A DNA stretch of 43,773 nucleotides from positions 1 through 43,773 of the forward strand of contig JAKJDO010000005.1 in assembly GCA_022705905.1 (NCBI GenBank). Reading direction: 5' to 3'. Origin of the DNA: Patescibacteria group bacterium. GTDB lineage: Bacteria; Patescibacteriota; Patescibacteriia; Patescibacteriales; UBA12075. The position numbers and the translations under genes were made by a program. The notes below the pieces were generated by a model, which saw only the letters and a program-made list of their open reading frames with translations, did no database searches and was not told the origin of the DNA. Below, one piece after another: positions 6,549 to 31,809 of this stretch (positions are counted from its first letter, which is position 1; each line of letters opens with the position of its first letter).

Positions 6549-8015
6549 CTAAATTTTTGGGAAGATTTTTTTGAACGACGCGAATTTTGATTCGTTAGTA
6601 AAATGAGTAATTTTTTCTTTAGCTCGATTAGTTTTTACAAATTTTAGCCAATCTCGGCTTGGTCCCTTTCTTCTTTTATCAATTATTATCTCTGTCAGAT
6701 CACCGTTTTTTAAAGGGTGGTCTAGGGGCACCATTTTATTATTTACCAAGGCGCCGATAGCTTTATTGCCAATTTCGGTATGGACAGCATAAGCAAAATC
6801 AATAGGCGTTGAATCTTCCGGGAGATCAAAAACATCGCCTTTCGGAGAAAAAACAAAGATACGATCGTGGAAAATGTCTAATTTAATTTCTTTTATAAAA
6901 TCCTTATCTTCGTTTTCCTGTTTTAGAATATTGAGAATCTCTTTGACCCAGGCTGGCTGCCTTTCTTCATGATAATCAGAGCCGCTTCTTTGTTTATAAT
7001 ACCAGTGGGCGGCTATGCCGTAGTGGCTTTCTTCATTCATTTCTTCGGTTCTGATTTGGAATTCTGTTGGCTGGTTGTCTATGCCAAAAACAGTCGTGTG
7101 TAGACTGCGATAACCGTTAGGTTTCGGAACGGCTATATAATCTTTAATGCGGCCGACTTTAGGCTTCCAAATCGTATGGATTATGCCTAGGGTTTTATAG
7201 CAGTCAGGAATAGAGGGAACGATAATGCGCAGGGCGAACACATCAAGAATCTCATCAAATTTGCGGTCTTTAAGCTGCATTTTTTTATAAATACTGTAGA
7301 GATGCTTAAAGCGGCCTTCAACTTGATAGTCAATCCCGGCTTCAGATAATTTTTTACCCAAAGTATTTTTTACTTTTTGAATATATTGATTGCGTTCAAC
7401 CTTTTTTTCAACCTCGTATTTATAGAGTAATTTTTTGAATTCTTCCGGGTATAAATATTTAAAGCATAAATCTTCCATCTGCCATTTTAGCCTCCAAATA
7501 CCCAAAAGACCGGCAATAGGCGCGTAAATTTCTAGTGTTTCCCTGGCTATCCGTTGTCTTTTTTCTGTCGGCAAGGCGTCAAGTGTGCGCAAGTTATGTA
7601 AGCGGTCGCAAAATTTAATTAAAATGACGCGCAGATCTTCAGCCATAGCCAGGAACATTTTACGTAAATTCTCACGGTATCTTTCAACTCCGCGGTATTT
7701 TATTTTTCCTAATTTAGTAATTCCATGGACTAAGCTGGCAACGTCTTGGCCAAAATTTTTTTCGATTTCTTCCAGAGTAACTTCAGTATCTTCCGGCACA
7801 TCATGCAGTATGCCAGCGATGATAATTGTTAAATCTGCTTTCATCTGCGCCAACAAAAAAGCAGTATGCAGACTGTGCTGGATGTATGGCTCTCCGTTCA
7901 TCCTTTTTTGCCCTTTGTGAGCTTTATCGGCAAATTCATAGGCCAATTGTAACAAATCCGCGTCTGCTTGAGGGTCATTTTCTCTGACTTGATTAATAAT
8001 CTGGCCAATAGTCAT
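6549..8015 (-). CDS. rel: RelA/SpoT homolog (HD hydrolase + synthetase + TGS; no C-terminal ZFD/ACT domains)
   Basis: AHKGQKRMNGEPYIQH, LHDVPEDT, IKFCDRLHNLRTL, GRFKHLYSIYKKM, PKPNGYRSLHT, EFQIRT and TPIDFAYAVHT motifs; the protein ends right after the TGS domain. Confidence 0.93.
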   Translation of the reverse strand: MTIGQIINQVRENDPQADADLLQLAYEFADKAHKGQKRMNGEPYIQHSLHTAFLLAQMKADLTIIIAGILHDVPEDTEVTLEEIEKNFGQDVASLVHGITKLGKIKYRGVERYRENLRKMFLAMAEDLRVILIKFCDRLHNLRTLDALPTEKRQRIARETLEIYAPIAGLLGIWRLKWQMEDLCFKYLYPEEFKKLLYKYEVEKKVERNQYIQKVKNTLGKKLSEAGIDYQVEGRFKHLYSIYKKMQLKDRKFDEILDVFALRIIVPSIPDCYKTLGIIHTIWKPKVGRIKDYIAVPKPNGYRSLHTTVFGIDNQPTEFQIRTEEMNEESHYGIAAHWYYKQRSGSDYHEERQPAWVKEILNILKQENEDKDFIKEIKLDIFHDRIFVFSPKGDVFDLPEDSTPIDFAYAVHTEIGNKAIGALVNNKMVPLDHPLKNGDLTEIIIDKRRKGPSRDWLKFVKTNRAKEKITHFTNESKFASFKKIFPKI

Positions 8016-8071
8016 AAATTTAGACTAGTTTTTTTATCTAAACTTGTTTATAATAATAATTTTATGTTATA

Positions 8072-8100
8072 ATAATATTACAAAACTGTGGATTAGTCAA
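8072..8100 (-). promoter_or_regulatory. Sigma70-type promoter for rel
   Basis: The minus strand reads TTGACT-17 bp-TATTAT upstream of the ATG at 8015. Confidence 0.55.
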
Positions 8101-8179
8101 TTTATAAAATTTTTGTTGATAACTAAAAAAGTCGATATTTTTTGTTGTTTTCCTTTATTTTAACTATTTATATTTAATA

Positions 8180-9925
8180 ATGAAATCTCTTGTAAAAAAT
8201 AGAATAGGATTGACAGCGTTTTTGGTTGCCGCTGTTTTGTTGTTTTCATTTTTTTCGGCTTTAACGGTCTGGGGGCAAACGGATTTAGGATTAAATGAAG
8301 CTGGCGCTATCGGTCTACCTAGTTCTGACGGTCGAGATATAAAAACGTTATTAGTAGATATCGTCAAATACTTGCTTAGTTTTTTGGGAATGGTAGCAGT
8401 TGTAATTATTATGTATGCCGGCTGGCTGTGGATGACGAGCGGCGGTAATCAATATCAGCTGGAAAAAGCTAAAAAAACTTTAATAAATGCGACAATTGGT
8501 CTTATTATTATAGTTTTATCTTTTATGATCGTTGCTTGGGTGTCAAATTGGATTACTAGCACCATCAATTATAGGGGGTCAAGCAGCCGGGGGTCTTCTA
8601 GTGGAGTCGGTCTGGCTACCGCAGGCAATACTGCTATTGAGTCTCATTATCCTGCCCGAGATCAAAGAGATGTTCCGCGCAACACTCGTATAGTCGTTAC
8701 TTTCCGAGAGCCGATTAGAGTCGAAGATATTATAGAAGCTGGCCGTGTTAACACCGATAACGTCAAAATATTTAAGACAGTTGAAGATAATACCAGGCTT
8801 CATTCACCCAACTTGACTGCCGTAACTACTGATGGCCGCACTTTCCGTTTTGCGCAAGAAGAGCCGTTTATGGGCAGCCCATCGGAAAACTTTTGGTACA
8901 CAGTGGAATTGACAAGTAATATATATAAAGCCAATGGTGATCGTCTGTTTAGTATAGGTGGCGGCTATTCTTGGCAGTTTGAGTTAAGCACCGCAATTGA
9001 TAACGAGCCTCCAAAAATTGCCAGTTTTATACCTCGTATTAATGCTATTGAGCCTAGGAACGTCGTTATTCAAATCAACTTTAACGAAGCAATAGACCCG
9101 ATTACTGCTATGGGCGAAGCCCCCGCTTTTGATAATATTCAAGTTAATAGCGGCTCTATGTTAGCTGGTGAGTTTTATATCTCTAATCAATATCGCACGG
9201 TGGAATTTTTAACAACTGACCAATGCGGCGTTAATTCTTGCGGCCACCCTGTTTATTGTCTGCCAGCCGACAGCAATATTCGCACAACTGTTTTAGCAGC
9301 CACCTTAGATAATCCTGGTTCCGGCAGTGCTTACTCAAGCGCTATTGACGGCATTGTTGATATGGCTGGCAATTCTTTAGACGGTAACAACAACAATATC
9401 GCCGAAGGACCGACTTCTCAAAATGGTTTGCCTGCTTACGACGCTAATAATCCGACAGTCGCCTCAACCAGTGATAACTTTTCTTGGCTTTTTAGCACTA
9501 ATAACAATGTTGATATTACTGAGCCGAGAATAAACAGCATCAATCCTAACGCTTCTTATAACGATACAAATGTTGATGTTCGTGAAATACCTTTCGCTGT
9601 TTTTAACAAGTTGATATTAAGTAGCAGCTTAAAAAAGATAGAAACAATTTCGTTAAGAGCTAATCCGACTGCCAGCGAAGTTTTTTATTGGCTGACGTCT
9701 GCTAACGAACCAGCTGTTAATCCAAATCAAACAAGGGTATTTTTGAACCACAGACAGTTTGTTAATACAGTTAATTCAACCTACGCTCCTTTGTTTACTT
9801 CCGGCATTTTAGACATTTATCAAAATTGTTTTTATCCCAGTGGAGGACTTTCTTGCACCGCCAGCCCGGGCACAGGTTTTCCTTATTGTTGCAATGGAGC
9901 TTTGGCGACAGATTGCGACCCTTAG
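8180..9925 (+). CDS. VirB2/TrbC-like pilin domain fused to bacterial Ig-like (Big_5-type) repeats; surface protein
   Basis: Signal-like N-terminus, then a pilin helical hairpin (YLLSFLGMVAVVIIMYAGWLWMTSGGN..EKAKKTLINATIGLIII), then P-x-x-x-x-x-VPRNTRIVVTFREPI and PRNVVIQINFNEAID Ig-like repeats. Confidence 0.8.
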   Translation: MKSLVKNRIGLTAFLVAAVLLFSFFSALTVWGQTDLGLNEAGAIGLPSSDGRDIKTLLVDIVKYLLSFLGMVAVVIIMYAGWLWMTSGGNQYQLEKAKKTLINATIGLIIIVLSFMIVAWVSNWITSTINYRGSSSRGSSSGVGLATAGNTAIESHYPARDQRDVPRNTRIVVTFREPIRVEDIIEAGRVNTDNVKIFKTVEDNTRLHSPNLTAVTTDGRTFRFAQEEPFMGSPSENFWYTVELTSNIYKANGDRLFSIGGGYSWQFELSTAIDNEPPKIASFIPRINAIEPRNVVIQINFNEAIDPITAMGEAPAFDNIQVNSGSMLAGEFYISNQYRTVEFLTTDQCGVNSCGHPVYCLPADSNIRTTVLAATLDNPGSGSAYSSAIDGIVDMAGNSLDGNNNNIAEGPTSQNGLPAYDANNPTVASTSDNFSWLFSTNNNVDITEPRINSINPNASYNDTNVDVREIPFAVFNKLILSSSLKKIETISLRANPTASEVFYWLTSANEPAVNPNQTRVFLNHRQFVNTVNSTYAPLFTSGILDIYQNCFYPSGGLSCTASPGTGFPYCCNGALATDCDP

Positions 9926-9959
9926 GGATTTAGCTATTTTTTACAAAATTTTAAATAAA

Positions 9960-12623
9960 ATGTTGAGAATATATAAAACTAAGAAGTATCTCGTTTTTTT
10001 TGTCTTGTCTGTTTTTTTAATGGTTGCTTTTAAGTTTGTTCAGGCGCAAGATCTGGGCTTAAATGAAGCGGCCGGTTTAGGCCTGCCATCAGCCGGCGCC
10101 ACTGATCCGAGGTTGTTTGTCATTAATGTTGTTCGTTTCATTTTAGGATTTTTAGGCGTCGTTGCCACAATTATTATTTTATATGGCGGTTGGCTATGGA
10201 TGACTAGCGCCGGGGAACTGATGCGAGTGCAAAAAGCTAAAAAAACTTTAATCGCCGCTATTATCGGTTTGATTATCATTATTGCCGCCTTTGCCATAGT
10301 TTCTTTTGTTGCTAATTTTATGAGAGATACTATTGGCAGCGGCACTTCCTCCGGTTTATGCGACCCTCCTTGTCTGGCTGGACAGTGCTGTTGCAGCGGC
10401 GTTTGCCAGAGCTGTCCTTGCGGTTCGCTTACGCCTACCGGCAGCAGCTTTAGGTTGCGAAGCACTTCGCCGGTAGCTAATGCCATTAATCAGCCCAGAA
10501 ATGTCATAGTTAGAGCTTTTTTGAGCCGTCCGGCCGCGCCATCTGTCGATGATATACTCAGTAGCAATTTTATTTTACGAAGAATAGGTGACATTAATCC
10601 AGGAACAGGAGATTTTATTGACGGACCGGATACTGATGTTAACGGTATTGTTTCCACCTCATCTAATCGTACGATTTTGAATTTTACTCCTAGCGACAAT
10701 TTAGACTCGTGGTCAAGATACCAGGTGGTAATTGATGGTTCTACTAGTATGAACCCCGTAGACCATATAATCGATTTTGACGGCAATCGCTTGACTTGCG
10801 GTTTGCCGGCGCCTTGTAATTTTACTTTTGACACTAACGATTTAATAGATGCAGCTGTGCCAACCGTCCGCATTATACCAACTCAAATTTGCTATGACGA
10901 CGGCACTTTATCGCCCGGTTCTAATATTATTGGTGGCTGGGGTAGGGATGATACGGGCATTTCCTTTTTACGGGCTTATTATGAGATGCCCCATGTTAAT
11001 ATTTTTGATGTTGTCGGTACTGGCAATCGCTATCAATATGCCCAAAATGTGGTTGATACTAGCGGCATGACAGTCGGTGATGTTTACACTTTTACAGTAG
11101 AGGCCGACGATTTAGTTTTAAATACTGAAGCTGACAGTTTTGAAGCAACTATTAGAGCCGGTCATTGTTGCAACGACCAGCGCGATTTAGACGAAGAGGG
11201 TGTTGATTGTGGCGGCGCGGACTGCGATTCATGCGCCAGCATGAATCCAATTATTACTAATTTGTCTCCTGATAACGGCGCTCCGGGTAATTTTATTACT
11301 ATAATGGGGCGCTATTTTGGCATGACGCCCGGGCGAGTTTATTTTTCCAATGCGGCCGGTGATTTAGTGGTAGAGGCGCAACTTCCCAATACTGTAAATC
11401 CAAATTGCAATAATAATTGGAGTAACAATCAAATCGTGGTAGTTGTCCCCGGAGGAGCGGCTACTGGCCCGATTATGGTTGAAAGGAGTGACGGACGTTC
11501 AGACACAACTGCCGCAGACAGCGAGCCATATATTAATTTTGAAGTTAACACCATAGCTCGTCCCGGCCTTTGTCTAGCAAATCCTAATACCGGATTTTTT
11601 AATACCGAATTTGATTTGCATGGCATCGCCTTCGGCGGCACAAACCGCTATGTTCGTTTTGGTAATGAATCCGACTATATTACCGCTAACAACATGCACG
11701 ACTGGACAAATCTTTTTGTTAGCGCTCAGGTTCCTAATATCACTCGTGGCTTAGCAACGGTTTATGCTAATATTGATACTGTTAATTCTAACTTTTTATA
11801 TTTTATAGTTCAGCAAGACACCGATAATAACCCAGTAATTGATTATATTGATCCGCCGCAAGGCCCTAACAACCAGTATATTACTATTTATGGCAGCGGT
11901 TTTATGAGTTATCAGCCGGGCGTTAGTCAGGTTAGTTTTACTAATTTTGGCACCGGAGAAACTACCGCCGCTGGCATTGATTTTCCGGTAGAATGTCGTA
12001 ATAGTTGGTGGCGCGCCAGCTATATTACAGTAAAGGTCCCGGCCACAGTAGCTAACGGTAATTATCAAGTGAGAGTAACCAATAGAGCGAACAATACCAG
12101 TGAACCAGAAAATTTTAATATTATCGCCGGCACTCCGACGCCAGGTATTTGTTTGTTGTCGCCGCATAATGGGCCAGTGGGAACAGCGGTTAATATTTAT
12201 GGTGATAATATGGGTTCTACTCCAGGGACGGCTATATTCTATAATAATGTTTCTGTAACGCCTGCTGCTAGTGAATGGAGACAGCAATTAGTTGCAGCTT
12301 CGGTTCCAGCTGGAGCGGTAACGGGCCCGGTAGTTATTAGCAACGGTGCCAATAGCAATGGTCTTCCTTTTACAGTTGGCAGCTGCACTAGCAACGGCGA
12401 TTGTGAAAGCGGCGAAGAATGTTGCGGTTCGGGTTCGTCTTGGTCGGGTATTTGCCGAAACGTTGGCACTTGCGTTGGCGCTGGTTTTACATCCACTGCT
12501 TTTGGTTGGACTTTTTCTACTGCTTCAGCAGCGACGGCGGAGAATGCTCGGGCGTTTATCCGGCCTGTTCCGATCCTAACGAATTTTGCGATCCTGATTC
12601 CGATTGTACTTGCCAGCCTCTGA
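9960..12623 (+). CDS. Pilin-anchored giant surface protein, 5' part (pilin + Big_5 + three IPT/TIG-like repeats + Cys-rich segments)
   Basis: Same DLGLNEA + pilin hairpin as the upstream gene; PIITNLSPDNGAPGNFITIMG, PVIDYIDPPQGPNNQYITIYG and LLSPHNGPVGTAVNIYG TIG-like starts. The ATG at 9960 is preferred. The true frame appears to be lost near 12521-12545. Confidence 0.75.
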   Translation: MLRIYKTKKYLVFFVLSVFLMVAFKFVQAQDLGLNEAAGLGLPSAGATDPRLFVINVVRFILGFLGVVATIIILYGGWLWMTSAGELMRVQKAKKTLIAAIIGLIIIIAAFAIVSFVANFMRDTIGSGTSSGLCDPPCLAGQCCCSGVCQSCPCGSLTPTGSSFRLRSTSPVANAINQPRNVIVRAFLSRPAAPSVDDILSSNFILRRIGDINPGTGDFIDGPDTDVNGIVSTSSNRTILNFTPSDNLDSWSRYQVVIDGSTSMNPVDHIIDFDGNRLTCGLPAPCNFTFDTNDLIDAAVPTVRIIPTQICYDDGTLSPGSNIIGGWGRDDTGISFLRAYYEMPHVNIFDVVGTGNRYQYAQNVVDTSGMTVGDVYTFTVEADDLVLNTEADSFEATIRAGHCCNDQRDLDEEGVDCGGADCDSCASMNPIITNLSPDNGAPGNFITIMGRYFGMTPGRVYFSNAAGDLVVEAQLPNTVNPNCNNNWSNNQIVVVVPGGAATGPIMVERSDGRSDTTAADSEPYINFEVNTIARPGLCLANPNTGFFNTEFDLHGIAFGGTNRYVRFGNESDYITANNMHDWTNLFVSAQVPNITRGLATVYANIDTVNSNFLYFIVQQDTDNNPVIDYIDPPQGPNNQYITIYGSGFMSYQPGVSQVSFTNFGTGETTAAGIDFPVECRNSWWRASYITVKVPATVANGNYQVRVTNRANNTSEPENFNIIAGTPTPGICLLSPHNGPVGTAVNIYGDNMGSTPGTAIFYNNVSVTPAASEWRQQLVAASVPAGAVTGPVVISNGANSNGLPFTVGSCTSNGDCESGEECCGSGSSWSGICRNVGTCVGAGFTSTAFGWTFSTASAATAENARAFIRPVPILTNFAILIPIVLASL

Positions 12624-15600
12624 ACGATACAGCGGATAGTTGTCGGGGCAGATCAGCCAGAACTAATCGTTGCGATCCGTTTGTTTGTCCTAATTCTCCC
12701 GGCACCTGCTCGCCTTATACTGCCACCGGCTATCAAGTACTAGACGGATTTGCTTGCGATGATTCTTGCGCTGGCGTTGCTAATTGTGGTGTTGCTTGTA
12801 ATTATGTTGATAGCTTGGACTCTTGTGTTTTAACTGATAGATTTTGTACTCGGATAGAATACGATATATTTGGCCGGGAAATTGTCGCAACTTGCGCGGC
12901 TTACGGTTCTAGCGGTGAATATCGCTGGCAAATTTCAACCACAGTTGACTGTCCGTCCGGTTGGCTGAATATCGGCAGAAACCGTTGTGTTAATTTAACA
13001 GAAACTTGTCTGCCTTGTCCTAATAATTTTATTTGTCGGGATTATGATAATGACAGTCAAGGAGATTGTGTGGCCAATCGAAGAATGTGTGTTGGGACTT
13101 CGCATTGTATCGGCACGCAGTGCGTAGTATCCGACCGGAACTCTTGCGAATGTTGTTGCAGTATATCGCAAAATAATCTCGACGGCACGAACCCTTCTTG
13201 TTGCGCACCATTGACTTGTGAAGGCAATTGCGGCTCCGACGCTTCCGGAGTTGATACCGATACTTATGGTTTTTGTTCCGGTTGCGCGTCTGCTTCCGAT
13301 CCGGACTCTGCTTGTAATTGTGAAGGGCATAGCGGTAAGTATTGTGATACAACAACCAATCCGGCTGGAATTTGTCTTGATTGCGCCGCTTTAAATTCTA
13401 CCGAATGCACCAACCACGACGCTTGTTGTGTTGATGTTCAGAGCGGCGACGCTTGTCGCGGCGTAGGTGTTGATGGTCAGAGAAATATTAATGGTACTTG
13501 CGCTTATTATTCTTGCGAAATCAGCGGTCCGGACGCTAATTGTGTAGCTGGCGAAACGGGAGCTTATAAAACTTTAGCTAGATGTGAAGGTAGATGCGTC
13601 GGTTCAGCGGACATTCCAATTGGCCAAAGATGCCTTAGTTTGTCGCCTGTTTATAGTTGCACTTCCGGCATAAACAATTGCGGCGTTTATGATTGCATCA
13701 GCAACGATTTGGGTTCTGACTGCCGCTGTTGTTGCGATCCTAATAATAATACCTGTCCCAGCGGCTTGGATTGCACCCCCAAAGAGCCTTGCGATAGTCC
13801 GGCCGGTAATCGCGGCATATGTTGTGGCTGTGTTAGCAATGATCAATGCTATGGCGGCGGTTTTCAAGGCTGCGGCACAGACTCTTGCTGCCACGAAAGA
13901 CCTCAAATCAGCGAAGTATTTCCAATTGACGAGCAGGAAAACGTTTGCCGCAACACCTTGATAAGAGCCACTTTCAACCAAAGAATGAATATCCAAAGTT
14001 TTACCGGTAATATTATATTATTGGGAGATTATGAAGATTCTCCTTGCCCCGCTGGAACGACTTATTTAGCGCTAGAGGCGCCTCATCGCAATCAATTGTC
14101 CCAGTTTATTAATAAAATAAGAAGATCTTTTCATAGGCTTTTAGCTTTTGTTTGGCCACAGCCGACGGCTTTTGCCCAATTTAACCCCGAACCAGGCCGT
14201 AGTTATTGTGCGGTTAGAGGCGTTACTACCGGCTATAACGATGTTTCTGATAATGGGGTTTTAGAATTTAAATTAAGTTCCGTCCTTGATCCTAATAGAG
14301 TCTATTTCGCCATAGTTAGAGGCGACAGAAATTTGGATAATCAGCAAGGAGTAATAAGCTTTTGGGGGATAGGCATGAACGATATTACTTATGACGGACA
14401 ACCGGAAATGGTTACTTTTAACGGCATTGCTTATTATCGCTCTTCTATCTGGGCTTTCCGTACAGGCGATGATATTTGCGAGTTGAATAGCGTATCTATT
14501 GATCCCGCTAGCTATTTATTTACTACAGCTAATACAGCAGCTACGTTTATTGCCGAGCCACGTTCGTCTGACGGACAGATTTTAATTGGTAAACCGGGAG
14601 TTTATGAATGGACTTGGAATTGGCGTTCCAGCAAGCCATCAGTTGTCGTTGTGAGCAATGACGGCGGTCCCGATTCAATCCAAACAGTTACTTCACAAAA
14701 TGTTCAGGATGACAGGACTGTAATAAGTGCCACAGCTAGCGTTGTCGGCCAAAGTCGTTCCCGAACAGGTCAGTCTAATGTTTATGTTTTCTTGTGCGAA
14801 AATCCTTGGCCAGCTAGGAATAGCGATGGTTCTTGGGCGCCATGGCGCGATCAGGCAGGCAACTGCATTGCTGGTTCCGGCGATTGCACTAATAGTTATA
14901 ATTACGAATTGTATTATTGCCGAGACAGCGGTCGCGCGGGCACCTTTGACGATTTACCTCCGCTTTTAGGAACCACTTCAACCCCGCCAGTTATTCGCGG
15001 TCGATCTTCAACCACCTTGAAAGAGGCATATTTTTTCCGTGAGAATGTGCCGACCGCTACTACCAGCTTAACAATCGTAGATGATGGTACGGGCAATAGC
15101 GTGACCGCTAACTGGATAGCTGTGCCCGAAGTTAGTTTGACTAATTATCGCGTTTATTGGGGAACTGCTTCCGGCAACTATTCAAATAATCGAGAACTGC
15201 CCAACACAGCTAATACTTTCCAAGTGACTGGCTTACAGCCAGGAACTAGATACTACTTCCGCCTCACGGCGATTTATTCAGATAATCGGGTGGAAACTGA
15301 TTTATATAATGAAATTAGTATCGTTCCTAGAGACACCACTCCGCCCGACTTTCCAACTAACTTTACAGCCGCTACAACTACAATTAGCGGCGAGATTAGG
15401 CTTAGCTGGGACGCAGTGAATGGAGCCGTGAGCTACAATATTTATTACGGCACTACTTTAGGAGTTTATGGCACTTCGCGCAATGTTGGCAATATAACCA
15501 GCGTGATTTTATCAGGATTAAGATCAGACAATTCTTATTATTTTTCTGTTAGCGCTGTTGACGCGGCCGGAAACGAAAGTAGTCCTTCCGCGATTTCGGC

Positions 15601-15625
15601 TGGACCAATTTCTCCCAGTCCTTAA
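12521..15625 (+). CDS. Pilin-anchored giant surface protein, 3' part (very Cys-rich region + Big_5 + two FN3 domains); probably joined to 9960 by a frameshift
   Basis: No credible start or signal peptide; dense Cys motifs, PQISEVFP..ENVCRNTLIRATFN, and two FN3-like repeats (ANW..YRVYWGT..GLQPGTRYYF; LSWD..YNIYYGT..GLRSDNSYYFSVSAVD). Confidence 0.7.
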   Translation, partial: CFSSDGGECSGVYPACSDPNEFCDPDSDCTCQPLNDTADSCRGRSARTNRCDPFVCPNSPGTCSPYTATGYQVLDGFACDDSCAGVANCGVACNYVDSLDSCVLTDRFCTRIEYDIFGREIVATCAAYGSSGEYRWQISTTVDCPSGWLNIGRNRCVNLTETCLPCPNNFICRDYDNDSQGDCVANRRMCVGTSHCIGTQCVVSDRNSCECCCSISQNNLDGTNPSCCAPLTCEGNCGSDASGVDTDTYGFCSGCASASDPDSACNCEGHSGKYCDTTTNPAGICLDCAALNSTECTNHDACCVDVQSGDACRGVGVDGQRNINGTCAYYSCEISGPDANCVAGETGAYKTLARCEGRCVGSADIPIGQRCLSLSPVYSCTSGINNCGVYDCISNDLGSDCRCCCDPNNNTCPSGLDCTPKEPCDSPAGNRGICCGCVSNDQCYGGGFQGCGTDSCCHERPQISEVFPIDEQENVCRNTLIRATFNQRMNIQSFTGNIILLGDYEDSPCPAGTTYLALEAPHRNQLSQFINKIRRSFHRLLAFVWPQPTAFAQFNPEPGRSYCAVRGVTTGYNDVSDNGVLEFKLSSVLDPNRVYFAIVRGDRNLDNQQGVISFWGIGMNDITYDGQPEMVTFNGIAYYRSSIWAFRTGDDICELNSVSIDPASYLFTTANTAATFIAEPRSSDGQILIGKPGVYEWTWNWRSSKPSVVVVSNDGGPDSIQTVTSQNVQDDRTVISATASVVGQSRSRTGQSNVYVFLCENPWPARNSDGSWAPWRDQAGNCIAGSGDCTNSYNYELYYCRDSGRAGTFDDLPPLLGTTSTPPVIRGRSSTTLKEAYFFRENVPTATTSLTIVDDGTGNSVTANWIAVPEVSLTNYRVYWGTASGNYSNNRELPNTANTFQVTGLQPGTRYYFRLTAIYSDNRVETDLYNEISIVPRDTTPPDFPTNFTAATTTISGEIRLSWDAVNGAVSYNIYYGTTLGVYGTSRNVGNITSVILSGLRSDNSYYFSVSAVDAAGNESSPSAISAGPISPSP

Positions 15626-15670
15626 TTGTTATTGAATAATTTTTATTAAATTAATAGTAAGTTTAATTAT

Positions 15671-16369
15671 ATGGCTGACAACGAAATAAAAGGAGACGTT
15701 AAAAAGGACGAGCTAGTATTAGACGATATTTTTGCCGACGAAGATGAAGCTAAAACTAATGTTAATGCCGGCTCCAATAATCAGGCCGAGGAACCAATAG
15801 ACAAAAGTCAAATTCGGACTATTGACTACGAAAATGAAGGACTGGGTTTTTTTGGTATAATAAAAAAACATTTATTAAAGATTGTCGCTATAATTTTAGT
15901 TTTTTTGCTGATCGGCATCGGTTTTTTTTATCGCCAGCGTTTATTAGTTTTAAGCTCTTATTATGCCAATATTTTTAGCGTCAAGCTGGATAATTTAAAA
16001 CAAAAAGAGACAAAAATTCAAAACGGAGAAGTTAAAGTAGGCAATGGAGAAGAGATGTTAATAGATGCCGGGACTGTTATCAATCAAGATGCAGAAAAAG
16101 AATTAAACACCAATAATGCCGCAAGCCAGACTGCTAATGAAATTGACTCAGACCAGGATGGCTTAACTGACAGCGAAGAAGCTTCTTTGGGTACCGATCC
16201 ACTTAACCCGGATACTGACGGCGACGGTCTATTTGATCGCGAAGAGGTAAGGGTTTTTAAAACCGATCCGCTTAACCCGGATACTGACGGCGACGGCTTT
16301 AAAGACGGCGAAGAGGTAAGGGCAAAAATGAATCCTCGCGGACAAGGAACATTAAATGACATGAAATAA
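15671..16369 (+). CDS. Single-pass membrane protein with TSP3-like Ca-binding repeats
   Basis: One TM helix; DSDQDGLTDSEE..GTDPLNPDTDGDG repeated. Confidence 0.75.
   Translation: MADNEIKGDVKKDELVLDDIFADEDEAKTNVNAGSNNQAEEPIDKSQIRTIDYENEGLGFFGIIKKHLLKIVAIILVFLLIGIGFFYRQRLLVLSSYYANIFSVKLDNLKQKETKIQNGEVKVGNGEEMLIDAGTVINQDAEKELNTNNAASQTANEIDSDQDGLTDSEEASLGTDPLNPDTDGDGLFDREEVRVFKTDPLNPDTDGDGFKDGEEVRAKMNPRGQGTLNDMK
16193..16321 (+). repeat. Intragenic 69-bp tandem duplication (TDPLNPDTDGDG unit)
   Basis: ACCGATCC(A/G)CTTAACCCGGATACTGACGGCGACGG starts at 16193 and at 16262, with GCGAAGAGGTAAGGG in both copies. Confidence 0.85.
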
Positions 16370-16375
16370 TAAGCT

Positions 16376-17443
16376 ATGTTTTTTAAGAAAAAAACTGATA
16401 AAAAAATATTAGAGGCTGATATGGCTGCCAGCCAAATAGCGGAAAAGATTGAAAAAGACATTGTTGTGTATGCTATGCCCAAAAGGTTTTTAGGAAAAAA
16501 GCTGGACGCGCAAAAAGCCAAAAAAACAGGAGTAATTATATTGTTTTTTGGTTTTTTGGTTTTTGTTTCCGCAGCTGTTTTTATTTATTGGTATTTATTT
16601 AGGCAAGAGCCTAAAGAAATAGCTGGCAATGCCAATACGGCCGCGTCCGTAGATTCTGTTGGTAAAATTTCTGATTCTAATGCGGACAAACCAGACACCA
16701 ACAAAATAGAGTTCGCACCAGTCGGGTTAACGACCAGCGAGGATATTCCTCAGCCATCTTTAGTTAGTTCCACCACTGAGGAGTTGCTTTCCGGCCCTAC
16801 ATCAACCCTGCCTGATGGTTTGTCGAATGAGGTTGAAGATGGGCAAATTATCCCTAATACGCCGATAGTGCCTTCCACAACAACCACTAAGGCTCTGGTT
16901 ATTTCCGCCGATAGTGATGGCGACGGTTTAACCGATCTCGAAGAAGTGGTTATCGGCACAGATCCAATGTCTGGAGATAGTGATGGCGACGGCTACAGCG
17001 ATTTGTCTGAATTAAAAAATTTATATAATCCGGCCGGCCAAGGCAAGCTCATTGTTAATCCTCGTTTTGATATTTATAGCAATCCGACTTTTGGCTATAC
17101 TTTGTATTATCCAAAAGCTTGGGAAATAAATAATGGCGCCGGCGATGACGCCACTATTTTTAAAATCAATAATAGCCAGTTTATAGAAGTCGTGGTTATT
17201 GATAATACTAAACAGCAAACGATTCAAGAGTGGTATAAGGAGCAATTTAATACCAATTTGATTTTACCAACGCAAATAATATATAAACAAGGATGGACAG
17301 GTTTGGCCAGTGAAGACGGCTTGCATGCCTATTTATACAATCCTTTAGGTGATAAGATTTATGCTTTTTTCTATAACATTGGTGAGGGCGGCGCGCTTAG
17401 CCATAAAAATATATTTAACTTGATGATTGATAGTCTTAAGTAG
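16376..17443 (+). CDS. Single-pass membrane protein with TSP3-like repeats and a C-terminal PsbP-like domain
   Basis: TM helix, Ser/Thr/Pro-rich linker, DSDGDGLTDLEE..GTDPMSGDSDGDG, then YSNPTFGYTLYYPKAW (PsbP-like start). Confidence 0.7.
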   Translation: MFFKKKTDKKILEADMAASQIAEKIEKDIVVYAMPKRFLGKKLDAQKAKKTGVIILFFGFLVFVSAAVFIYWYLFRQEPKEIAGNANTAASVDSVGKISDSNADKPDTNKIEFAPVGLTTSEDIPQPSLVSSTTEELLSGPTSTLPDGLSNEVEDGQIIPNTPIVPSTTTTKALVISADSDGDGLTDLEEVVIGTDPMSGDSDGDGYSDLSELKNLYNPAGQGKLIVNPRFDIYSNPTFGYTLYYPKAWEINNGAGDDATIFKINNSQFIEVVVIDNTKQQTIQEWYKEQFNTNLILPTQIIYKQGWTGLASEDGLHAYLYNPLGDKIYAFFYNIGEGGALSHKNIFNLMIDSLK

Positions 17444-17452
17444 CCTTTTTGT

Positions 17453-17857
17453 ATGGTAGAAGTAAATAACCAGACTAAAAGCAAAATTGACATTAAGCTG
17501 GTTAGGCGAGTCGCGGAAGAATTTTTAGTTCATTATAAATTAAACACAAAGGAAGTATCAATCGTTTTTGTCAGCGATCAGGAAATAAAGCGAATAAATA
17601 AAAGTTATAGGCAGATTGATAAAGAAACTGACGTTTTGTCTTTTGAGGGAGAAGGAGATTTTTTAGGGGAGATTGTCATTGATTACGCGCAGATAAAAAG
17701 ACAAGCCAAAGAGTTTAATCGGGGAATTAACGACGAATTAGTTTTTATATTAGTACATGGTTTGCTGCACTTAGTCGGATATGACGACAAGACCGAGAAG
17801 AGCAGGCTTAAAATGGTAAAATTAGGAGAAAGGTTTATAAGAATTTTAAATTTCTAA
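17453..17857 (+). CDS. ybeY: rRNA maturation endoribonuclease YbeY
   Basis: NKSYRQIDKETDVLSF, GEIVI and HGLLHLVGYDD (variant of the HGxLHLxGYDH metal motif). Confidence 0.93.
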   Translation: MVEVNNQTKSKIDIKLVRRVAEEFLVHYKLNTKEVSIVFVSDQEIKRINKSYRQIDKETDVLSFEGEGDFLGEIVIDYAQIKRQAKEFNRGINDELVFILVHGLLHLVGYDDKTEKSRLKMVKLGERFIRILNF

Positions 17858-17972
17858 TTTTTAATTTTCAAAACAATGAATTAATTCATAAATTTTATAA
17901 TTTTTAAATATAAAATTTTAAAATTAACTCATTGAAAATTGTTTGAAAATTAAAAATTGAAAATTTGAAAAT
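17856..17972. repeat. AT-rich heptamer repeats (TGAAAAT-type) with a 17-bp perfect inverted repeat
   Basis: AATTTTTAATTTTCAAA (17856-17872) is the exact reverse complement of TTTGAAAATTAAAAATT (17942-17958); GAAAATT units recur through 17972. Confidence 0.7.
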
Positions 17973-17981
17973 TATTATTCT

Positions 17982-18338
17982 ATGATTCGCATTAAACGTT
18001 TGTTTAAAAGTTTTATATACGCCTTCAAGGGTTTGAGGAAAGTTTTTATTGAGGAGCAGAATTTTCAGATCCAGTCCTTGGTGGCTTTTATAGTAATTGC
18101 TTTAGGTTTATTTTTTAGAATCAGCGCCATAGAATGGTGCATTATTCTTTTTACTATTAGCGCCGTATTGCTAATGGAACTGGCCAATAGCGCGGTGGAA
18201 CGGGTGACAGATGTTTTAAAGCCAAGGATTCATGACTACGTTAAAGAAATAAAGGACATAATGGCCGCGGCTGTATTTATCGCATCATTTTTTGCGGTTA
18301 TAATCGGTATTATTATCTTTTGGCCGTATATTTTTTAA
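17982..18338 (+). CDS. dgkA: DgkA-family diacylglycerol/undecaprenol kinase
   Basis: SFIYAFKGL, EEQNF, ELANSAVERVTD and KDIMAAAV motifs; three TM helices; the ybeY-dgkA order matches Firmicutes. Confidence 0.92.
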   Translation: MIRIKRLFKSFIYAFKGLRKVFIEEQNFQIQSLVAFIVIALGLFFRISAIEWCIILFTISAVLLMELANSAVERVTDVLKPRIHDYVKEIKDIMAAAVFIASFFAVIIGIIIFWPYIF

Positions 18339-18394
18339 CCATCTTTTCCTTTACTAGATAATTTAGTATAATAATGTTATAATAAACGGAGTGG

Positions 18395-18430
18395 AAAGTT
18401 TGTAAAGTTATAAAGTTTATAAAGTCATAA
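18395..18430 (+). repeat. Short 8-9-mer tandem repeat upstream of ftsA
   Basis: AAAGTTTGT AAAGTTAT AAAGTTTAT AAAGTCAT. Confidence 0.65.
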
Positions 18431-18470
18431 TCTGTTCACATTTTTTATTCACTTGATACATAGATAATTT

Positions 18471-19739
18471 ATGAAAGAGAATATAATAGCCGGACTTGAT
18501 ATCGGTTCCACAGCCGTCCGCTTAGTCGTTGGTCAGCAGGTTCGTGGCATGGGCGAGGACGATAATTTAAAAATCATTGGCGCTGTTAGCGCTCCGTCGG
18601 TCGGAATCAATAAGGGCGCGGTGAAAAGTATAGAAGACGTTACTTCTTCTATTTCGGCTTGCCTGGAAAAATGCGAGAGATTAGTCGGCGTACCGGTCGA
18701 AAGCGTTTGGGTCAGCTTAAATAGCCCTTATATAAAATGCGAAAAAAGTCGGGGTGTTGTAGCGGTCAGCAAAAGCGACGGCGAGGTCAGCCAGGACGAT
18801 ATTGAGAGAGCCCTAGAAGCCGCTCGGGCTTTATCAGTTCCGCCTAACTACGAAATTCTTCATGTCATTCCAATTAAATTTACCGTTGATAACCAGGAAG
18901 ACGTTAAAGATCCGATTGGCATGATTGGCGTTCGTCTTGAGGTGGAAACTTTAATTATTCAAGGTTTGTCAAGTCAAATTAAAAATTTAACTAAAGCTAT
19001 TTTTAGAACCGGTTTAGATATAGAAGATTTAGTGCTTTCGCCACTCGCGGCTGCTGAAGCGGTTATTGGTCCGAAGCAAAAAGAACTAGGCGCGGCTTTA
19101 GTAAATATTGGCGCCTCTACTACTAGCTTAGCAGTCTTTGAAGAAGGTGAATTATTGCATACTGCCGTTATCCCGATCGGCTCAGAGCATATCACCGCTG
19201 ATGTTGCCATCGGTCTGCGCTGTCCAATAAATTTAGCCGACAGAATTAAGATGGAATATGGCAGCGCTTTGCCGGACAGTTTTAGCAAGAAAGACGAAAT
19301 CGATATTTCCGAAATTGCCAAAGAAGAAGACGCCCAAGACGAATTGACGACTATTTCCCGTCGCTATTTAGCCGAGATTATTGAGGCGAGAGTAGAAGAA
19401 ATTTTTGAGAAAATTGACACTGAATTAAAAAAGATTGACCGCTCCGGAATGTTGCCAGGCGGCGTTTATCTAGTCGGCGGCGGCACCAGACTGCATGACA
19501 TTGTCGAAGTAGCTAAAAAGCAACTACGCCTGCCGGTTTGCTTAGGGGTCAACAAAAACATTTCTACTATTATTGATAAAGTAAACGAAACTGAATTTTT
19601 CAACGCTTTAGGCCTAGTCGTTTGGGGCAACCAGATGTACGGTGCCTCCGGCAAGGGCAATTTTAAACTTCCGGGAGGAAAAGCCTTAAATAATACTTGG
19701 CAAAAAGTAAAAGATATCTTTTCCGGCATGATTCCCTAG
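18471..19739 (+). CDS. ftsA: Cell division protein FtsA
   Basis: GLDIGST, GINKG, ILHVIP, GVRLEV, VNIGASTT, IGSEHITADVA and GGVYLVGGGT motifs. Confidence 0.97.
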   Translation: MKENIIAGLDIGSTAVRLVVGQQVRGMGEDDNLKIIGAVSAPSVGINKGAVKSIEDVTSSISACLEKCERLVGVPVESVWVSLNSPYIKCEKSRGVVAVSKSDGEVSQDDIERALEAARALSVPPNYEILHVIPIKFTVDNQEDVKDPIGMIGVRLEVETLIIQGLSSQIKNLTKAIFRTGLDIEDLVLSPLAAAEAVIGPKQKELGAALVNIGASTTSLAVFEEGELLHTAVIPIGSEHITADVAIGLRCPINLADRIKMEYGSALPDSFSKKDEIDISEIAKEEDAQDELTTISRRYLAEIIEARVEEIFEKIDTELKKIDRSGMLPGGVYLVGGGTRLHDIVEVAKKQLRLPVCLGVNKNISTIIDKVNETEFFNALGLVVWGNQMYGASGKGNFKLPGGKALNNTWQKVKDIFSGMIP

Positions 19740-30922: not shown

Positions 30923-31001
30923 CTGGTATCGTGCTATAATAAAGTTATATAATGTAAATTAACAAACGAATATAATATGCTTGTTTGCAAAGTTGTTGGT
31001 T

Positions 31002-31250
31002 AAAAAAGCTTCACCAAAGCTATTACAAGTTTTGGATCAAACAGTTAAGATTGGCTATCCGAGTCTCTGTCCTTTTTTGAAGAACAGAGTAGGATGCAAA
31101 GGTAAAATAAGTCTTAGTTCGTTCCATTAAAGGATGTCATGAGTAAATGAACGTCTCGTGAAAATGAATTGAGACTGACTGTTAAAATAGTTTAGCAGGA
31201 CCTATTGTTTTAAGCCAATTCTTGATTAGCCATTTTGGTGGAGCTTTTTT
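31002..31250 (+). ncRNA. Candidate large structured non-coding RNA (family not recognised)
   Basis: 17-bp closing stem (31002-31018 with 31234-31250, one G-U pair), several internal helices and a crossing helix; no long ORF; TGCTATAAT extended -10 at 30932-30940. Confidence 0.55.
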
Positions 31251-31318
31251 AGTACTTTAATTATCCTGGACATTAGTCCAGTTTTTTTGTAGGATTAAAG
31301 TGTATTTAGCTGTATTTA

Positions 31319-31389
31319 CGGAGTATAGTATAACGGTAGTACGCGTCCATGGGGTGGATGTAGCCTGGGTTCAATTCCCAGTACTCCGA
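31319..31389 (+). tRNA. tRNA-Pro (GGG); CCA not encoded
   Basis: Acceptor stem CGGAGTA/TACTCCG, D arm, anticodon arm CGTCC-ATGGGGT-GGATG, T arm CTGGG-TTCAATT-CCCAG. Confidence 0.93.
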
Positions 31390-31401
31390 CAGAAAAAGAT
31401 A

Positions 31402-31478
31402 GGTGGACGTGTTGGCGAATAAGTTATAGCCGCGGTTCTCTGTCTGCCGGCAGGCAGAAATTCCGCTCAGCTCGACCA
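31402..31478 (+). other. Degenerate tRNA-like element carrying a TGCCGGCA palindrome, ending in CCA
   Basis: D-arm-like GGC-GAATAAGTTATA-GCC; T-arm-like GCGG-TTC...GAAATT-CCGC interrupted by TCTGTCTGCCGGCAGGCAGA; ends ..CTCGACCA; no anticodon arm. Confidence 0.45.
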
Positions 31479-31483
31479 AAAAT

Positions 31484-31795
31484 ATGTCAGAAAAAATAAA
31501 CCAATTTTTTTTCGATTATTTTAACCAAATAATAAATTCAGAAGTGATTGGACGCTATTTAGACTATGTTGGCAATCTTTCTTCTCGAGATGTTCTCATT
31601 TTAGTGGTTGTGACGGCGGTTTTGATTTTGATCATGGCTTACCGCAAATTAGGCATAGGAGCTGTTTTTGGCCTGTGCCTTATTTATTTTTTTATTTACG
31701 TAATTTTTTACTCTAATATTTTTGATAATTGGCAGAAAGAAAAAATGGAAGAACAAAGAAGAATGCAGATTTATAATGTGGAATTACAGAAATAA
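31484..31795 (+). CDS. Hypothetical membrane protein
   Basis: 103-aa ORF with two hydrophobic helices. Confidence 0.65.
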   Translation: MSEKINQFFFDYFNQIINSEVIGRYLDYVGNLSSRDVLILVVVTAVLILIMAYRKLGIGAVFGLCLIYFFIYVIFYSNIFDNWQKEKMEEQRRMQIYNVELQK

Positions 31796-31809
31796 TAAAG
31801 TTTTTTATC

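What the first reader, a model, noticed from the sequence alone, without database searches (positions are those of the whole stretch)
8180..17443. Pilin-anchored giant adhesin cluster with no T4SS genes nearby
Seen: two tandem genes start with nearly the same DLGLNEA + VirB2/TrbC-like pilin hairpin. They carry large extracellular cargo: Big_5 repeats in the first; Big_5, three TIG repeats, a long Cys-dense tract and two FN3 domains in the second (about 1,890 codons if joined). Two membrane proteins with Ca-binding TSP3-like repeats follow. There is no VirB4, VirD4 or relaxase in the window. Known: VirB2 pilins are normally small, and CPR cells are host-attached episymbionts rich in pilin-like and Cys-rich proteins. 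Inference: the pilin domain acts as a display or polymerisation handle for disulfide-stabilised host-attachment modules, and the TSP3 proteins are accessory anchors.
Basis: partly seen in the sequence, partly recalled or inferred. Interest (0 to 1): 0.62.

Follow-up and report, generated by a model that had tools for sequence, protein, structure and literature searches.

The report
Pilin-handled giant surface protein operon
An ultra-small (Falkowbacteria-type Patescibacteria) bacterium has a conserved four-gene operon in which two large surface proteins each start with a complete conjugation-type (VirB2-like) pilin; these pilin ends co-evolve with one free pilin encoded elsewhere, which suggests an undescribed way of mounting surface or adhesion proteins on the group's unexplained type IV secretion apparatus.

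Summary
Window 8180-17443 encodes four genes:
- g1 (581 aa): signal peptide, VirB2-like hairpin (Pfam T4SS_pilin, over cut-off), then a rod of about four Ig-like domains.
- g2: the same pilin module, then Big_5, three TIG domains, a Cys-rich tract and two FN3 domains.
- g3 and g4: two membrane proteins with TSP3 repeats.

- g2 is one 1892-aa gene in six other assemblies of this species. The window lacks 13 bp after position 12529, which splits the frame.
- The genome does have a T4SS-like cluster (VirB6-like, PrgI, TraC-like, VirB4-like, DsbA-like). It lies about 89 kb away on the same chromosome. A seven-gene small-pilin array lies elsewhere.
- The module sits between relA and ybeY-dgkA-ftsA-ftsZ in this species and three relatives, so it is not a mobile element. 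In 16/16 closed genomes the giant fusion is followed by TSP3 ORFs and g4; 12/16 have the g1-g2 pair.

New evidence:
- The hairpin is as conserved as the folded domains.
- The mature N-terminal tails of g1, g2 and one orthologous free pilin co-vary within genomes (0/5000 permutations). Codon identity shows no sign of recent gene conversion.

Best reading (about 0.5): the three pilin modules co-assemble, with the cargo outside the cell. Pilus incorporation and host binding are untested. I found no paper describing such fusions.

The parts
8180..9925 (+). g1: pilin-handled Ig-rod protein (581 aa). Signal peptide aa 1-32 (8180-8275), mature N-tail with DLGLNEA aa 33-58 (8276-8353), VirB2-like helical hairpin aa 59-125 (8354-8554), Gly/Ser linker (8555-8629), about four Ig-like domains aa 151-581 (8630-9922).
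   Evidence: Pfam T4SS_pilin 36.8 bits and Big_5 46.6 bits. AlphaFold2 model pLDDT 84.7: helices 54-86 and 91-129, then beta domains with pLDDT above 90. Foldseek matches tandem Ig domains of LdtMt2 and the S-layer protein SbsC. More than 500 homologues with the same architecture.
9960..15625 (+). g2: pilin-handled giant protein, one 1892-aa gene in other assemblies. In the window it is split by a 13-bp deletion after 12529 (frame 1 runs 9960-12623, frame 2 from about 12530 to 15625).
   Evidence: Six same-species assemblies carry the 13 bp and call a single 1892-aa gene. Orthologues of 1632-1976 aa align along almost the whole length at 36-43% identity.
10125..10322 (+). g2 VirB2-like hairpin. 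It is preceded by a signal peptide (9960-10046) and the N-tail QDLGLNEAAGLGLP... (10047-10124), and followed by a small Cys-rich knot (10356-10424).
   Evidence: T4SS_pilin 27.1 bits in the six-frame search and 21.3 bits in hmmscan, with a weak TrbC hit. Alignment with g1 and the genome's small pilins.
11238..12383 (+). g2: four IPT/TIG-like repeats. Units 1, 3 and 4 pass the Pfam cut-off.
   Evidence: 31.6, 33.0 and 24.4 bits against a cut-off of 20.9. Coordinates.
12387..13950 (+). g2: Cys-dense tract (about aa 810-1340 of the intact protein). It contains the 13-bp deletion site at 12529/12530.
   Evidence: Cys counts per 100 aa are 13, 10, 17, 14 and 16. The whole protein has 102 Cys.
15065..15601 (+). 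g2: two C-terminal fibronectin type III domains. A second Big_5 domain lies at 13895-14047.
   Evidence: Pfam fn3 at 65 bits with two stretches, and Big_5.
15671..16369 (+). g3: bitopic membrane protein (232 aa) with three TSP3_bac Ca-binding repeats (about 16145-16345).
   Evidence: Pfam TSP3_bac at 77 bits, three stretches. TSP3 ORFs lie between the giant and g4 in all 16 closed genomes.
16376..17443 (+). g4: bitopic membrane protein (355 aa). TM helix aa 45-75, disordered Ser/Thr/Pro linker, a TSP3 pair (about 16898-17050), and a C-terminal PsbP-like globular domain (about 17051-17440).
   Evidence: Pfam TSP3_bac at 36 bits with a weak PsbP hit. AlphaFold2 model with pLDDT above 90 for aa 175-355. 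Foldseek matches CyanoP 2xb3 and BT_1490 at E about 1e-4. About 700 homologues. It lies downstream of the giant in 16/16 closed genomes.

Best explanation
What it is. This is a chromosomal, vertically inherited four-gene surface module of Falkowbacteria-type Patescibacteria.

- g1 and g2 are Sec-exported proteins. Each has a complete VirB2-like (PF18895) pilin module as its first ~125 residues: signal peptide, a ~26-residue N-tail, and a two-helix hairpin with a basic loop. The rest of each protein is extracellular.
- g1 carries a conserved rod of about four Ig-like domains.
- g2 carries a long, lineage-variable chain: Big_5, TIG, a ~530-aa Cys-rich tract and FN3.

Proposed mechanism.
1. After signal-peptide cleavage the hairpin sits in the membrane with both ends outside.
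2. The hairpins of g1, g2 and one particular free pilin ('P', C13:33485-33865 in this genome) join into one hetero-oligomeric assembly through their hairpins and matching N-tails.
3. This assembly belongs to, or is built by, the genome's T4SS-like apparatus (VirB6-like, PrgI, TraC-like, VirB4-like), which lies about 89 kb away.
4. g1 and g2 can only be minority subunits, such as a cap, tip or base. A 450-1770-residue cargo on every subunit could not pack.
5. g1 would be the conserved stalk or adaptor and g2 the distal contact or adhesion element.
6. g3 and g4 are constant membrane-anchored partners with Ca-binding repeats. g4 also has a PsbP-like protein-binding-type domain. They probably hold or help assemble the ectodomains.
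7. A DsbA-like oxidoreductase next to the virB4 cluster could form the many disulfides.

Shown here: domain content, conservation, synteny, N-tail co-variation, and presence of the T4SS genes.

Inferred: topology, co-assembly, minority stoichiometry, the roles of g3 and g4, and adhesion.
For: - Pilin module: Pfam hits, a predicted helical hairpin, and alignment with the genome's nine other small pilins.
- The hairpin is not a passive anchor. Across 66 orthologues its majority-residue fraction is 0.72-0.75. The Ig domains score 0.65-0.72, the signal peptide 0.44 and the linker 0.50.
- Co-variation was tested in 13 genomes from 12 families. N-tails of g1, g2 and the orthologous free pilin P are much more alike within a genome than between genomes.
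  - g1-g2: 0.538 observed against 0.266 under permutation.
  - g1-P: 0.378 against 0.231.
  - g2-P: 0.392 against 0.241.
  - None of 5000 permutations reached the observed value in any of the three tests.
  - The own-genome P is the best match in 16 of 26 cases.
  - Other array pilins show no such effect: 0.158 against 0.145.
- P was chosen by hairpin-core similarity, independently of the tail.
- At identical residues, codon identity is near the codon-usage expectation: 0.46-0.49 against 0.41-0.42. The similarity therefore comes from selection on the protein, not recent gene conversion.
- Module conservation:
  - relA | g1 g2 g3 g4 | ybeY dgkA, followed by ftsA-ftsZ in the window and two of the three relatives, at about 42-46% identity.
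  - A giant followed by TSP3 ORF(s) and g4 in 16/16 closed genomes.
  - g1-like matches in 298/301 genomes of the class.
- T4SS parts are present: a VirB6-like gene, PrgI, a TraC-like gene, a P-loop_TraG VirB4-like gene and a DsbA-like gene on C29. There is one VirB4-like gene in each of 16/16 closed genomes.
- Published context: VirB2-like pilin arrays are part of the essential T4SS of Patescibacteria (PMC10633639, PMC12102498, PMC12857230).
Against: - No direct evidence exists for any filament, any contact between the three proteins, or surface exposure.
- The module is never next to virB4. In closed genomes it lies 20-680 kb away.
- Its neighbours are housekeeping and cell-division genes. 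That fits a general envelope protein equally well.
- Co-variation of the N-tails could also arise if all three are read by one common lineage-specific partner, such as a processing or sorting factor, without co-assembling.
- VirB4 and the fusions are both nearly universal in the class, so co-occurrence cannot discriminate.
- g2's pilin hit is below the Pfam cut-off in hmmscan (21.3 bits).
- The pilin profile finds no solved structure by sequence.
- g2 is frameshifted in this assembly.
Confidence: 0.5

Rival explanations
1. Passive anchor. The VirB2-like hairpin has been recruited only as a two-helix membrane anchor. g1 and g2 are ordinary envelope or S-layer-like proteins of the cell wall zone, independent of the T4SS and of any pilus.
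For: - The module lies between relA and ybeY-dgkA-ftsA-ftsZ, far from virB4.
- The g1 rod resembles the S-layer protein SbsC and the Ig domains of a peptidoglycan transpeptidase.
- The g1 cargo is highly conserved and near-universal, as for a structural envelope protein.
- A large cargo is hard to fit into a pilus lattice (inference).
Against: - A mere anchor should drift, yet the hairpin and its loop are as conserved as the folded domains.
- The N-tails co-vary with one specific free pilin encoded elsewhere and not with other array pilins.
- The full pilin layout, including the signal peptide and basic loop, is retained.
Confidence: 0.27
2. Shared recognition tag. g1, g2 and P do not assemble together. 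They share an N-terminal tag (DLGLNEA... in this genome) that one lineage-specific factor recognises, for example a processing peptidase, a sorting or modification enzyme, or a host receptor.
For: - The co-varying segment starts right at the predicted signal-peptide cleavage site.
- Published work on other VirB2-family pilins describes dedicated N- and C-terminal processing (cyclisation in RP4/Ti, acetylation in F). This rests on my own knowledge and was not tested here.
Against: - The hairpin core also shows a smaller within-genome excess: 0.645 against 0.569 under permutation, 0/2000.
- No candidate dedicated enzyme is encoded in the module.
Confidence: 0.15
3. Decaying or split gene. In this strain g2 is a pseudogene, or two separate genes, so the 'giant adhesin' is not made.
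For: The window has two overlapping frames caused by a 13-bp gap after 12529.
Against: - Six of six other assemblies of the same species, from four sources and including a 1.06-Mb contig, are intact.
- The downstream 1068 codons remain open and nearly identical. The gap is therefore either an assembly error or a very recent variant.
Confidence: 0.05
4. Part of a conjugative or integrative element.
For: The proteins carry a conjugation-type pilin domain.
Against: - The flanks are housekeeping genes.
- Synteny is identical in relatives at about 42-46% identity.
- The fusion-TSP3-g4 arrangement is found in all 16 closed genomes examined.
- No relaxase, T4CP or VirB4 lies on the contig.
Confidence: 0.01

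Closest known systems
VirB2-like pilins and pilin arrays of the Patescibacteria T4SS (Pfam PF18895/PF04956; Wang et al. 2023 PMC10633639; Quinonero-Coronel et al. 2025 PMC12102498; review PMC12857230)
   Same: Same pilin family, and the same genome also has a 7-gene small-pilin array. The T4SS has the same MPF-FATA-like make-up (VirB4, VirB6, PrgI) with no relaxase seen nearby. The pilins are often not next to virB4.
   Different: Published arrays are small pilins. That survey detected no PrgB-type adhesins, and I found no mention of large fusions in the passages I read. Here the pilin module carries 450-1770 extracellular residues. It forms a fixed g1-g2 pair with two TSP3 membrane proteins, sits in a housekeeping neighbourhood, and co-varies with one free pilin.
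Canonical conjugative pilins (VirB2, TrbC, TraA) and their tip/adhesin partners (VirB5; PrgB in Gram-positive systems)
   Same: Signal peptide plus a two-helix hairpin with a basic loop, and a weak TrbC profile hit. Functionally it may supply the adhesin that VirB5 or PrgB provide in other systems.
   Different: Canonical pilins are about 70-130 residues with no appended domains. VirB5 and PrgB are separate proteins without a pilin hairpin, and PrgB is wall-anchored. No LPXTG, VirB5 or PrgB domain was detected here.
Big_5 (SbsA-type) Ig-like S-layer proteins such as SbsC (PDB 4uic)
   Same: The g1 ectodomain is a rod of Big_5/Ig-like domains, and Foldseek matches SbsC at E = 5e-8.
   Different: No S-layer anchoring domain is present. 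Anchoring is by a pilin hairpin instead. TM-scores are low (0.13-0.16), so the likeness is at the level of single domains.
Pam pili of CPR bacteria (PamA/PamB, Ig-like pilins joined by donor-strand exchange; PMC13278184)
   Same: A CPR-specific surface appendage built from Ig-like folds and thought to mediate host contact.
   Different: A different assembly principle (chaperone-usher-like) with no VirB2 hairpin. It is reported mainly in Saccharimonadia and Microgenomatia, not in this lineage. No relationship was tested here.

Membership tests
VirB2/TrbC-like T4SS pilin (Pfam PF18895 T4SS_pilin) | Profile match above the curated cut-off | tested here: met
   g1 scores 36.8 bits against 26.6. 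g2 scores 27.1 bits in the six-frame search but 21.3 bits in hmmscan, so it is borderline. The g2 module is 45% identical to the g1 module.
VirB2/TrbC-like T4SS pilin (Pfam PF18895 T4SS_pilin) | Signal peptide followed by two hydrophobic helices joined by a short basic loop | tested here: met
   The sequence shows it. The AlphaFold2 model has helices 5-31, 54-86 and 91-129.
VirB2/TrbC-like T4SS pilin (Pfam PF18895 T4SS_pilin) | Small protein made of little more than the hairpin | tested here: not met
   g1 is 581 aa and g2 1892 aa. The genome's other ten PF18895 hits lie in open frames of 127-188 aa.
VirB2/TrbC-like T4SS pilin (Pfam PF18895 T4SS_pilin) | Encoded with, or at least in a genome with, VirB4/VirB6-type machinery | tested here: met
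   It is in the same genome but not adjacent. The cluster on C29 has VirB6-like, PrgI, TraC-like and VirB4-like genes. It lies about 89 kb away on the same-species contig.
VirB2/TrbC-like T4SS pilin (Pfam PF18895 T4SS_pilin) | Polymerises into an extracellular pilus | not testable with these tools
   No multimer prediction, reads or imaging were available. No pilus of this type has been shown in any Patescibacterium (PMC12857230).
Patescibacteria VirB2-like pilin array (Quinonero-Coronel 2025) | Two to eleven tandem genes with a PF18895/PF04956 hit | tested here: met
   g1 and g2 are adjacent and both hit. The genome also has a 7-gene array of small pilins on C13. The published description covers small pilins only.
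Gram-positive T4SS adhesin (PrgB type) | PrgB-like adhesin domains and an LPXTG cell-wall anchor | tested here: not met
   Pfam shows none in g1 or g2. No LPXTG at the C-termini.
Conjugative or integrative mobile element | Relaxase, coupling protein and integrase nearby, with patchy distribution | tested here: not met
   Flanks are housekeeping genes. Synteny is conserved in three relatives and the fusion-TSP3-g4 arrangement is present in 16/16 closed genomes. The only T4CP-like hit is on another contig.
PsbP-like fold proteins (g4 C-terminal domain) | Alpha/beta PsbP fold | tested here: inconclusive
   Foldseek matches CyanoP 2xb3 at E = 1e-4 with TM 0.53 on the target. The Pfam PsbP hit is 17 bits, below the cut-off. 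One NCBI record names a homologue 'PsbP-related'.

The most novel reading that the evidence does not exclude
P, g1 and g2 form the cap or nucleating tip complex of a T4SS-type (VirB2-family) filament in a monoderm bacterium. They would be the first modular conjugative-type pilins. The adhesin is built into the pilin itself, rather than being a separate VirB5 or PrgB protein. The lineage-specific N-tails act as the code that joins the three subunits. This would give the essential but unexplained Patescibacteria T4SS a concrete role: holding and probing the host surface. It would also explain why a published survey found no PrgB-type adhesin.
Probability: 0.3. Interest if true: 0.85.

Novelty: new variant of a known kind. 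Interest (0 to 1): 0.64.

Why it matters
Patescibacteria may make up a large share of bacterial diversity, and the cultivated ones live attached to other cells. How most of them make contact is unknown. Their T4SS is essential in the one species tested, it has VirB2-like pilins that Gram-positive-type systems normally lack, and no function or adhesin has been assigned to it.

A near-universal gene pair in a whole class welds that pilin to large Ig-like and Cys-rich ectodomains and co-evolves with one free pilin. It is a concrete, testable candidate for the missing contact device. It also offers a natural example of protein display on a conjugation-type pilin scaffold.

Tried and rejected
I could not check the 13-bp gap in raw reads, expression or co-transcription.
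- VirB4 by PF03135: no hit. The gene was found with PF12846/PF19044 instead.
- The weak AAA_10 hit on C18 is FtsK by inspection of its sequence motifs. The one at C29:16590 is RecG.
- Co-occurrence test. VirB4-like genes are in 283/301 class genomes and g1-like genes in 298/301. The 18 genomes without VirB4 are all fragmented MAGs scattered over families whose other members have it. The test cannot separate dependence from independence.
- Sequence search of the g1 family profile and the pilin profile against PDB found nothing useful.
- The Foldseek search of g1 returned only generic Ig-like tandems.
- The promoter and terminator scan of 7900-18500 gave no clear signals above background. Operon structure is inferred only from gaps of 7-46 bp.
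- A whole-protein Pfam scan missed TIG. Scanning single repeats found it.
- VKOR (a DsbB substitute): none.
- Gene conversion as the cause of the shared N-tails is rejected for g1-P and g2-P, because codon identity is near expectation. A slight excess remains for the g1-g2 core: 0.52 against 0.42.
- I considered a dockerin-like role for the paired TSP3 repeats. No Dockerin profile hit supports it.
Full report
**Observation.**

The ORF list and translations show four co-directional genes at 8180-17443, separated by gaps of 7-46 bp.

- g1 (8180-9925, 581 aa) hits Pfam T4SS_pilin (PF18895) at 36.8 bits against a cut-off of 26.6. It also hits Big_5 at 46.6 bits.
- g2 starts at 9960 with the same layout. 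Its signal peptide ends in VQA, the mature end reads QDLGLNEAAGLGLP, and a two-helix hairpin follows. T4SS_pilin scores 21.3 bits in hmmscan and 27.1 bits in the six-frame search, with a weak TrbC/VirB2 hit.
- g2 continues with Big_5, four IPT/TIG-like units and a Cys-dense tract, then a second Big_5 and two fn3 domains. Three of the TIG-like units pass the Pfam cut-off when scanned singly. The whole protein has 102 Cys, with 10-17 per 100 residues over about aa 800-1300.
- g3 (232 aa) and g4 (355 aa) are bitopic membrane proteins with TSP3_bac repeats.

**The split in g2.**

The window reads g2 in two overlapping frames. Alignment with six other assemblies of the same species was informative. 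These come from ENA, JGI, NCBI and Logan, and include a 1.06-Mb contig.

- The window lacks 13 bp (AGTGGTGCATTGT, flanked by a 2-bp AG microhomology) after position 12529.
- With those bases g2 is one 1892-aa protein.
- The downstream frame is otherwise intact. The gap is therefore an assembly error or a very recent variant.

**Context.**

The window is a whole 43.8-kb contig of a 0.95-Mb, 99%-complete genome. The closest named relatives of g1 are Candidatus Falkowbacteria and Magasanikbacteria. In the NCBI taxonomy these belong to the Patescibacteria/Parcubacteria group.

- The flanks are housekeeping genes. Upstream are der, lytR, lepB, hisS, yqeY and relA/spoT. Downstream are ybeY, dgkA, ftsA, ftsZ, nrdR/D/G, terC, prfB and comEC.
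- No VirB4, coupling protein or relaxase lies on the contig.
- The genome does have a T4SS-like cluster on contig C29: a VirB6/TrbL-like gene (821 aa), PrgI (VirB3-like), a TraC-like 226-aa ORF, a 642-aa P-loop_TraG/AAA_10 VirB4-like ATPase and a DsbA-like thioredoxin.
- On a 124.6-kb contig of the same species, this cluster and the g1-g4 module lie about 89 kb apart.
- The genome has twelve PF18895 hits: g1, g2, nine on contig C13 (seven of them tandem at 30552-33865) and one on C18.
- A second DsbA-like gene is on C3. No VKOR was found.
- A T4CP-like ATPase candidate is on C34, just over the cut-off.

**Conservation.**

- g1 has more than 500 homologues of about 570-620 aa with the same T4SS_pilin plus Big_5 architecture, at 41-71% identity.
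- In three relatives at 42-46% identity the order is the same: relA (divergent), g1, g2 (1632-1976 aa), a TSP3 protein, a g4 orthologue, ybeY, dgkA. In two of them ftsA-ftsZ follow, as in the window.
- Of 301 genomes sampled across the class, 298 have a g1-like match.
- In 16 closed or nearly closed genomes from 14 families:
  - each has one VirB4-like gene and 7-14 pilin hits;
  - 12 have an adjacent g1 (540-980 aa) and g2 (2500-3800 aa);
  - 4 have a lone giant fusion;
  - in all 16 the giant is followed by one or two TSP3 ORFs and a g4 orthologue;
  - the pair lies 20-680 kb from virB4.

This is a core chromosomal module, not a mobile element.

**Structure.**

- The AlphaFold2 model of g1 used 66 sequences and has pLDDT 84.7 and pTM 0.73. 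It shows a signal-peptide helix, a hairpin (helices 54-86 and 91-129), a disordered Gly/Ser linker, and beta-sandwich domains at pLDDT above 90 up to the C-terminus.
- Foldseek finds tandem Ig-like domains: LdtMt2 at E = 6e-9, the S-layer protein SbsC at E = 5e-8, and titin. There is no enzyme fold.
- The g1 cargo has many invariant residues across families. This argues for a conserved structural partner rather than a variable host receptor.
- The g4 model used 57 sequences. It has a TM helix, a ~100-residue disordered linker, a TSP3 pair and a confident C-terminal domain. That domain resembles cyanobacterial PsbP and BT_1490 at E about 1e-4.

**Is the hairpin more than an anchor?**

Two tests say yes.

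First, conservation along 66 g1 orthologues. The hairpin and its loop have a majority-residue fraction of 0.72-0.75. That is at least as high as the Ig domains (0.65-0.72) and far above the signal peptide (0.44) and the linker (0.50).

Second, co-variation. I fetched the pair and the small-pilin array from 12 closed genomes and recovered every pilin module with an HMM built from this genome's pilins.

- One array pilin, P, is orthologous across genomes by its hairpin core. Its signature is ..GGFKWMTAGGNE.KV.EAKK, and in this genome it is C13:33485-33865.
- The 26 residues before helix 1 of g1, g2 and P resemble each other within a genome much more than orthologues do between genomes. Examples are DLGLNEA here, VTSNELLP in G258, (S/T)(T/A)D(F/L)G(L/I) in G169 and DTFGL in G287.
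- The mean normalised score is 0.436 within genomes against 0.243 between genomes, with 0 of 2000 permutations reaching it.
- Taken separately, g1-P is 0.378 against 0.231 and g2-P is 0.392 against 0.241, with 0 of 5000 permutations each.
- The own-genome P is the best match in 16 of 26 cases.
- The other array pilins show no within-genome effect: 0.158 against 0.145.
- At identical residues, codon identity is 0.46-0.49 against 0.41-0.42 expected from codon usage. Recent gene conversion therefore does not explain the pattern. It is selection at the protein level.

This independently reproduces a lead from earlier notes of this scan.

**Mechanism.**

The topology is inferred from what is established for the VirB2 family. 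After signal-peptide cleavage both ends face outward and the basic loop faces the cytoplasm. In solved conjugative pili both ends lie on the outer surface of the filament (my own knowledge, not tested here). A C-terminal cargo is thus displayed outward.

My best reading, at about 0.5, is as follows.

- g1, g2 and P form one heteromeric assembly tied to the T4SS-like apparatus.
- g1 and g2 are minority subunits. g1 is a conserved stalk and g2 the distal, length-variable contact element.
- g3 and g4 are constant membrane partners.

The main rivals are a passive anchor (0.27) and a shared N-terminal recognition tag without co-assembly (0.15). Co-occurrence with VirB4 cannot separate these readings, because both features are nearly universal in the class.

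**Literature.**

- Patescibacterial T4SSs with VirB2-like pilin arrays are described, and the arrays are essential in Southlakia (PMC10633639, PMC12102498, PMC12857230).
- The 2025 survey detected no PrgB-type adhesins. The passages I read describe arrays of VirB2 proteins and say nothing of large fusions.
- A 2026 preprint describes a different CPR pilus built from Ig-like Pam pilins by donor-strand exchange, in other classes (PMC13278184).
- Five full-text searches found no description of pilin modules fused to large ectodomains.
- Earlier notes of this scan have flagged the same design in many genomes. It is recurrent in the data but, as far as I could search, unpublished.

**Verdict.**

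The feature is real and conserved. It is a new variant of a known kind: VirB2-like pilins of Patescibacteria carrying large cargo within a fixed four-gene module. Adhesion and pilus incorporation remain hypotheses.

Noticed in passing
L037:187-9634 (same-species contig; partly C29:36-2954 of this genome): Directly upstream of the VirB6-like gene of the T4SS cluster lie a 233-aa TSP3 membrane protein and a 2898-aa giant secreted protein. The giant has a weak CBM_4_9 hit and a signal anchor but no pilin hairpin. The pairing of a TSP3 membrane protein with a giant surface protein therefore recurs at the T4SS cluster itself.
   Followed up: partly
L001:9203-11815 (G000:C29): The VirB4-like ATPase is preceded by a separate 226-aa ORF matching the N-terminal TraC-like domain (TraC_F_IV/PF26593). 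The N-domain and the P-loop domain are two adjacent genes, 4 bp apart.
   Followed up: no
L001:12506-13267 (G000:C29) and G000:C3:2839-3315: There are two DsbA-like (Thioredoxin_4) genes, one two genes downstream of virB4. No VKOR-type reoxidase was found in the genome. This matters for the many Cys-rich surface proteins.
   Followed up: partly
G000:C34:17328-19823 (minus strand): An 831-aa membrane ATPase with Walker motifs hits T4SS-DNA_transf (VirD4-type coupling protein) just above the cut-off, at 24.8 bits. It lies far from the virB4 cluster.
   Followed up: no
window 31810-37212: More secreted or surface proteins lie downstream: a CAP-domain protein (31810-32832), a 768-aa protein ending in a TSP3 repeat (33051-35357), and a protein with three MopE-type metal-binding motifs (36253-37212). 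TSP3 tails seem to be a common surface-protein feature in this genome.
   Followed up: no
G000:C18:62380-65022: FtsK carries a long acidic Glu/Asp-rich repeat insert (about 60 residues of EEEEEEDDEDDKD-type repeats) between its membrane part and its motor.
   Followed up: no
L001:19292-20851 (G000:C29, minus strand): A 519-aa protein that looks from its sequence like a large serine recombinase (no family scan was run) sits about 7 kb downstream of the T4SS cluster, at the end of the contig. It could mark an integrated element or an assembly break.
   Followed up: no
closed genomes G128, G169, G180, G258, G071, G290, G245, G032, G108, G194: Most closed genomes of the class carry a further pilin-domain ORF of 340-500 aa within about 10 kb of virB4. 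This genome shows none on its virB4 contig.
   Followed up: no
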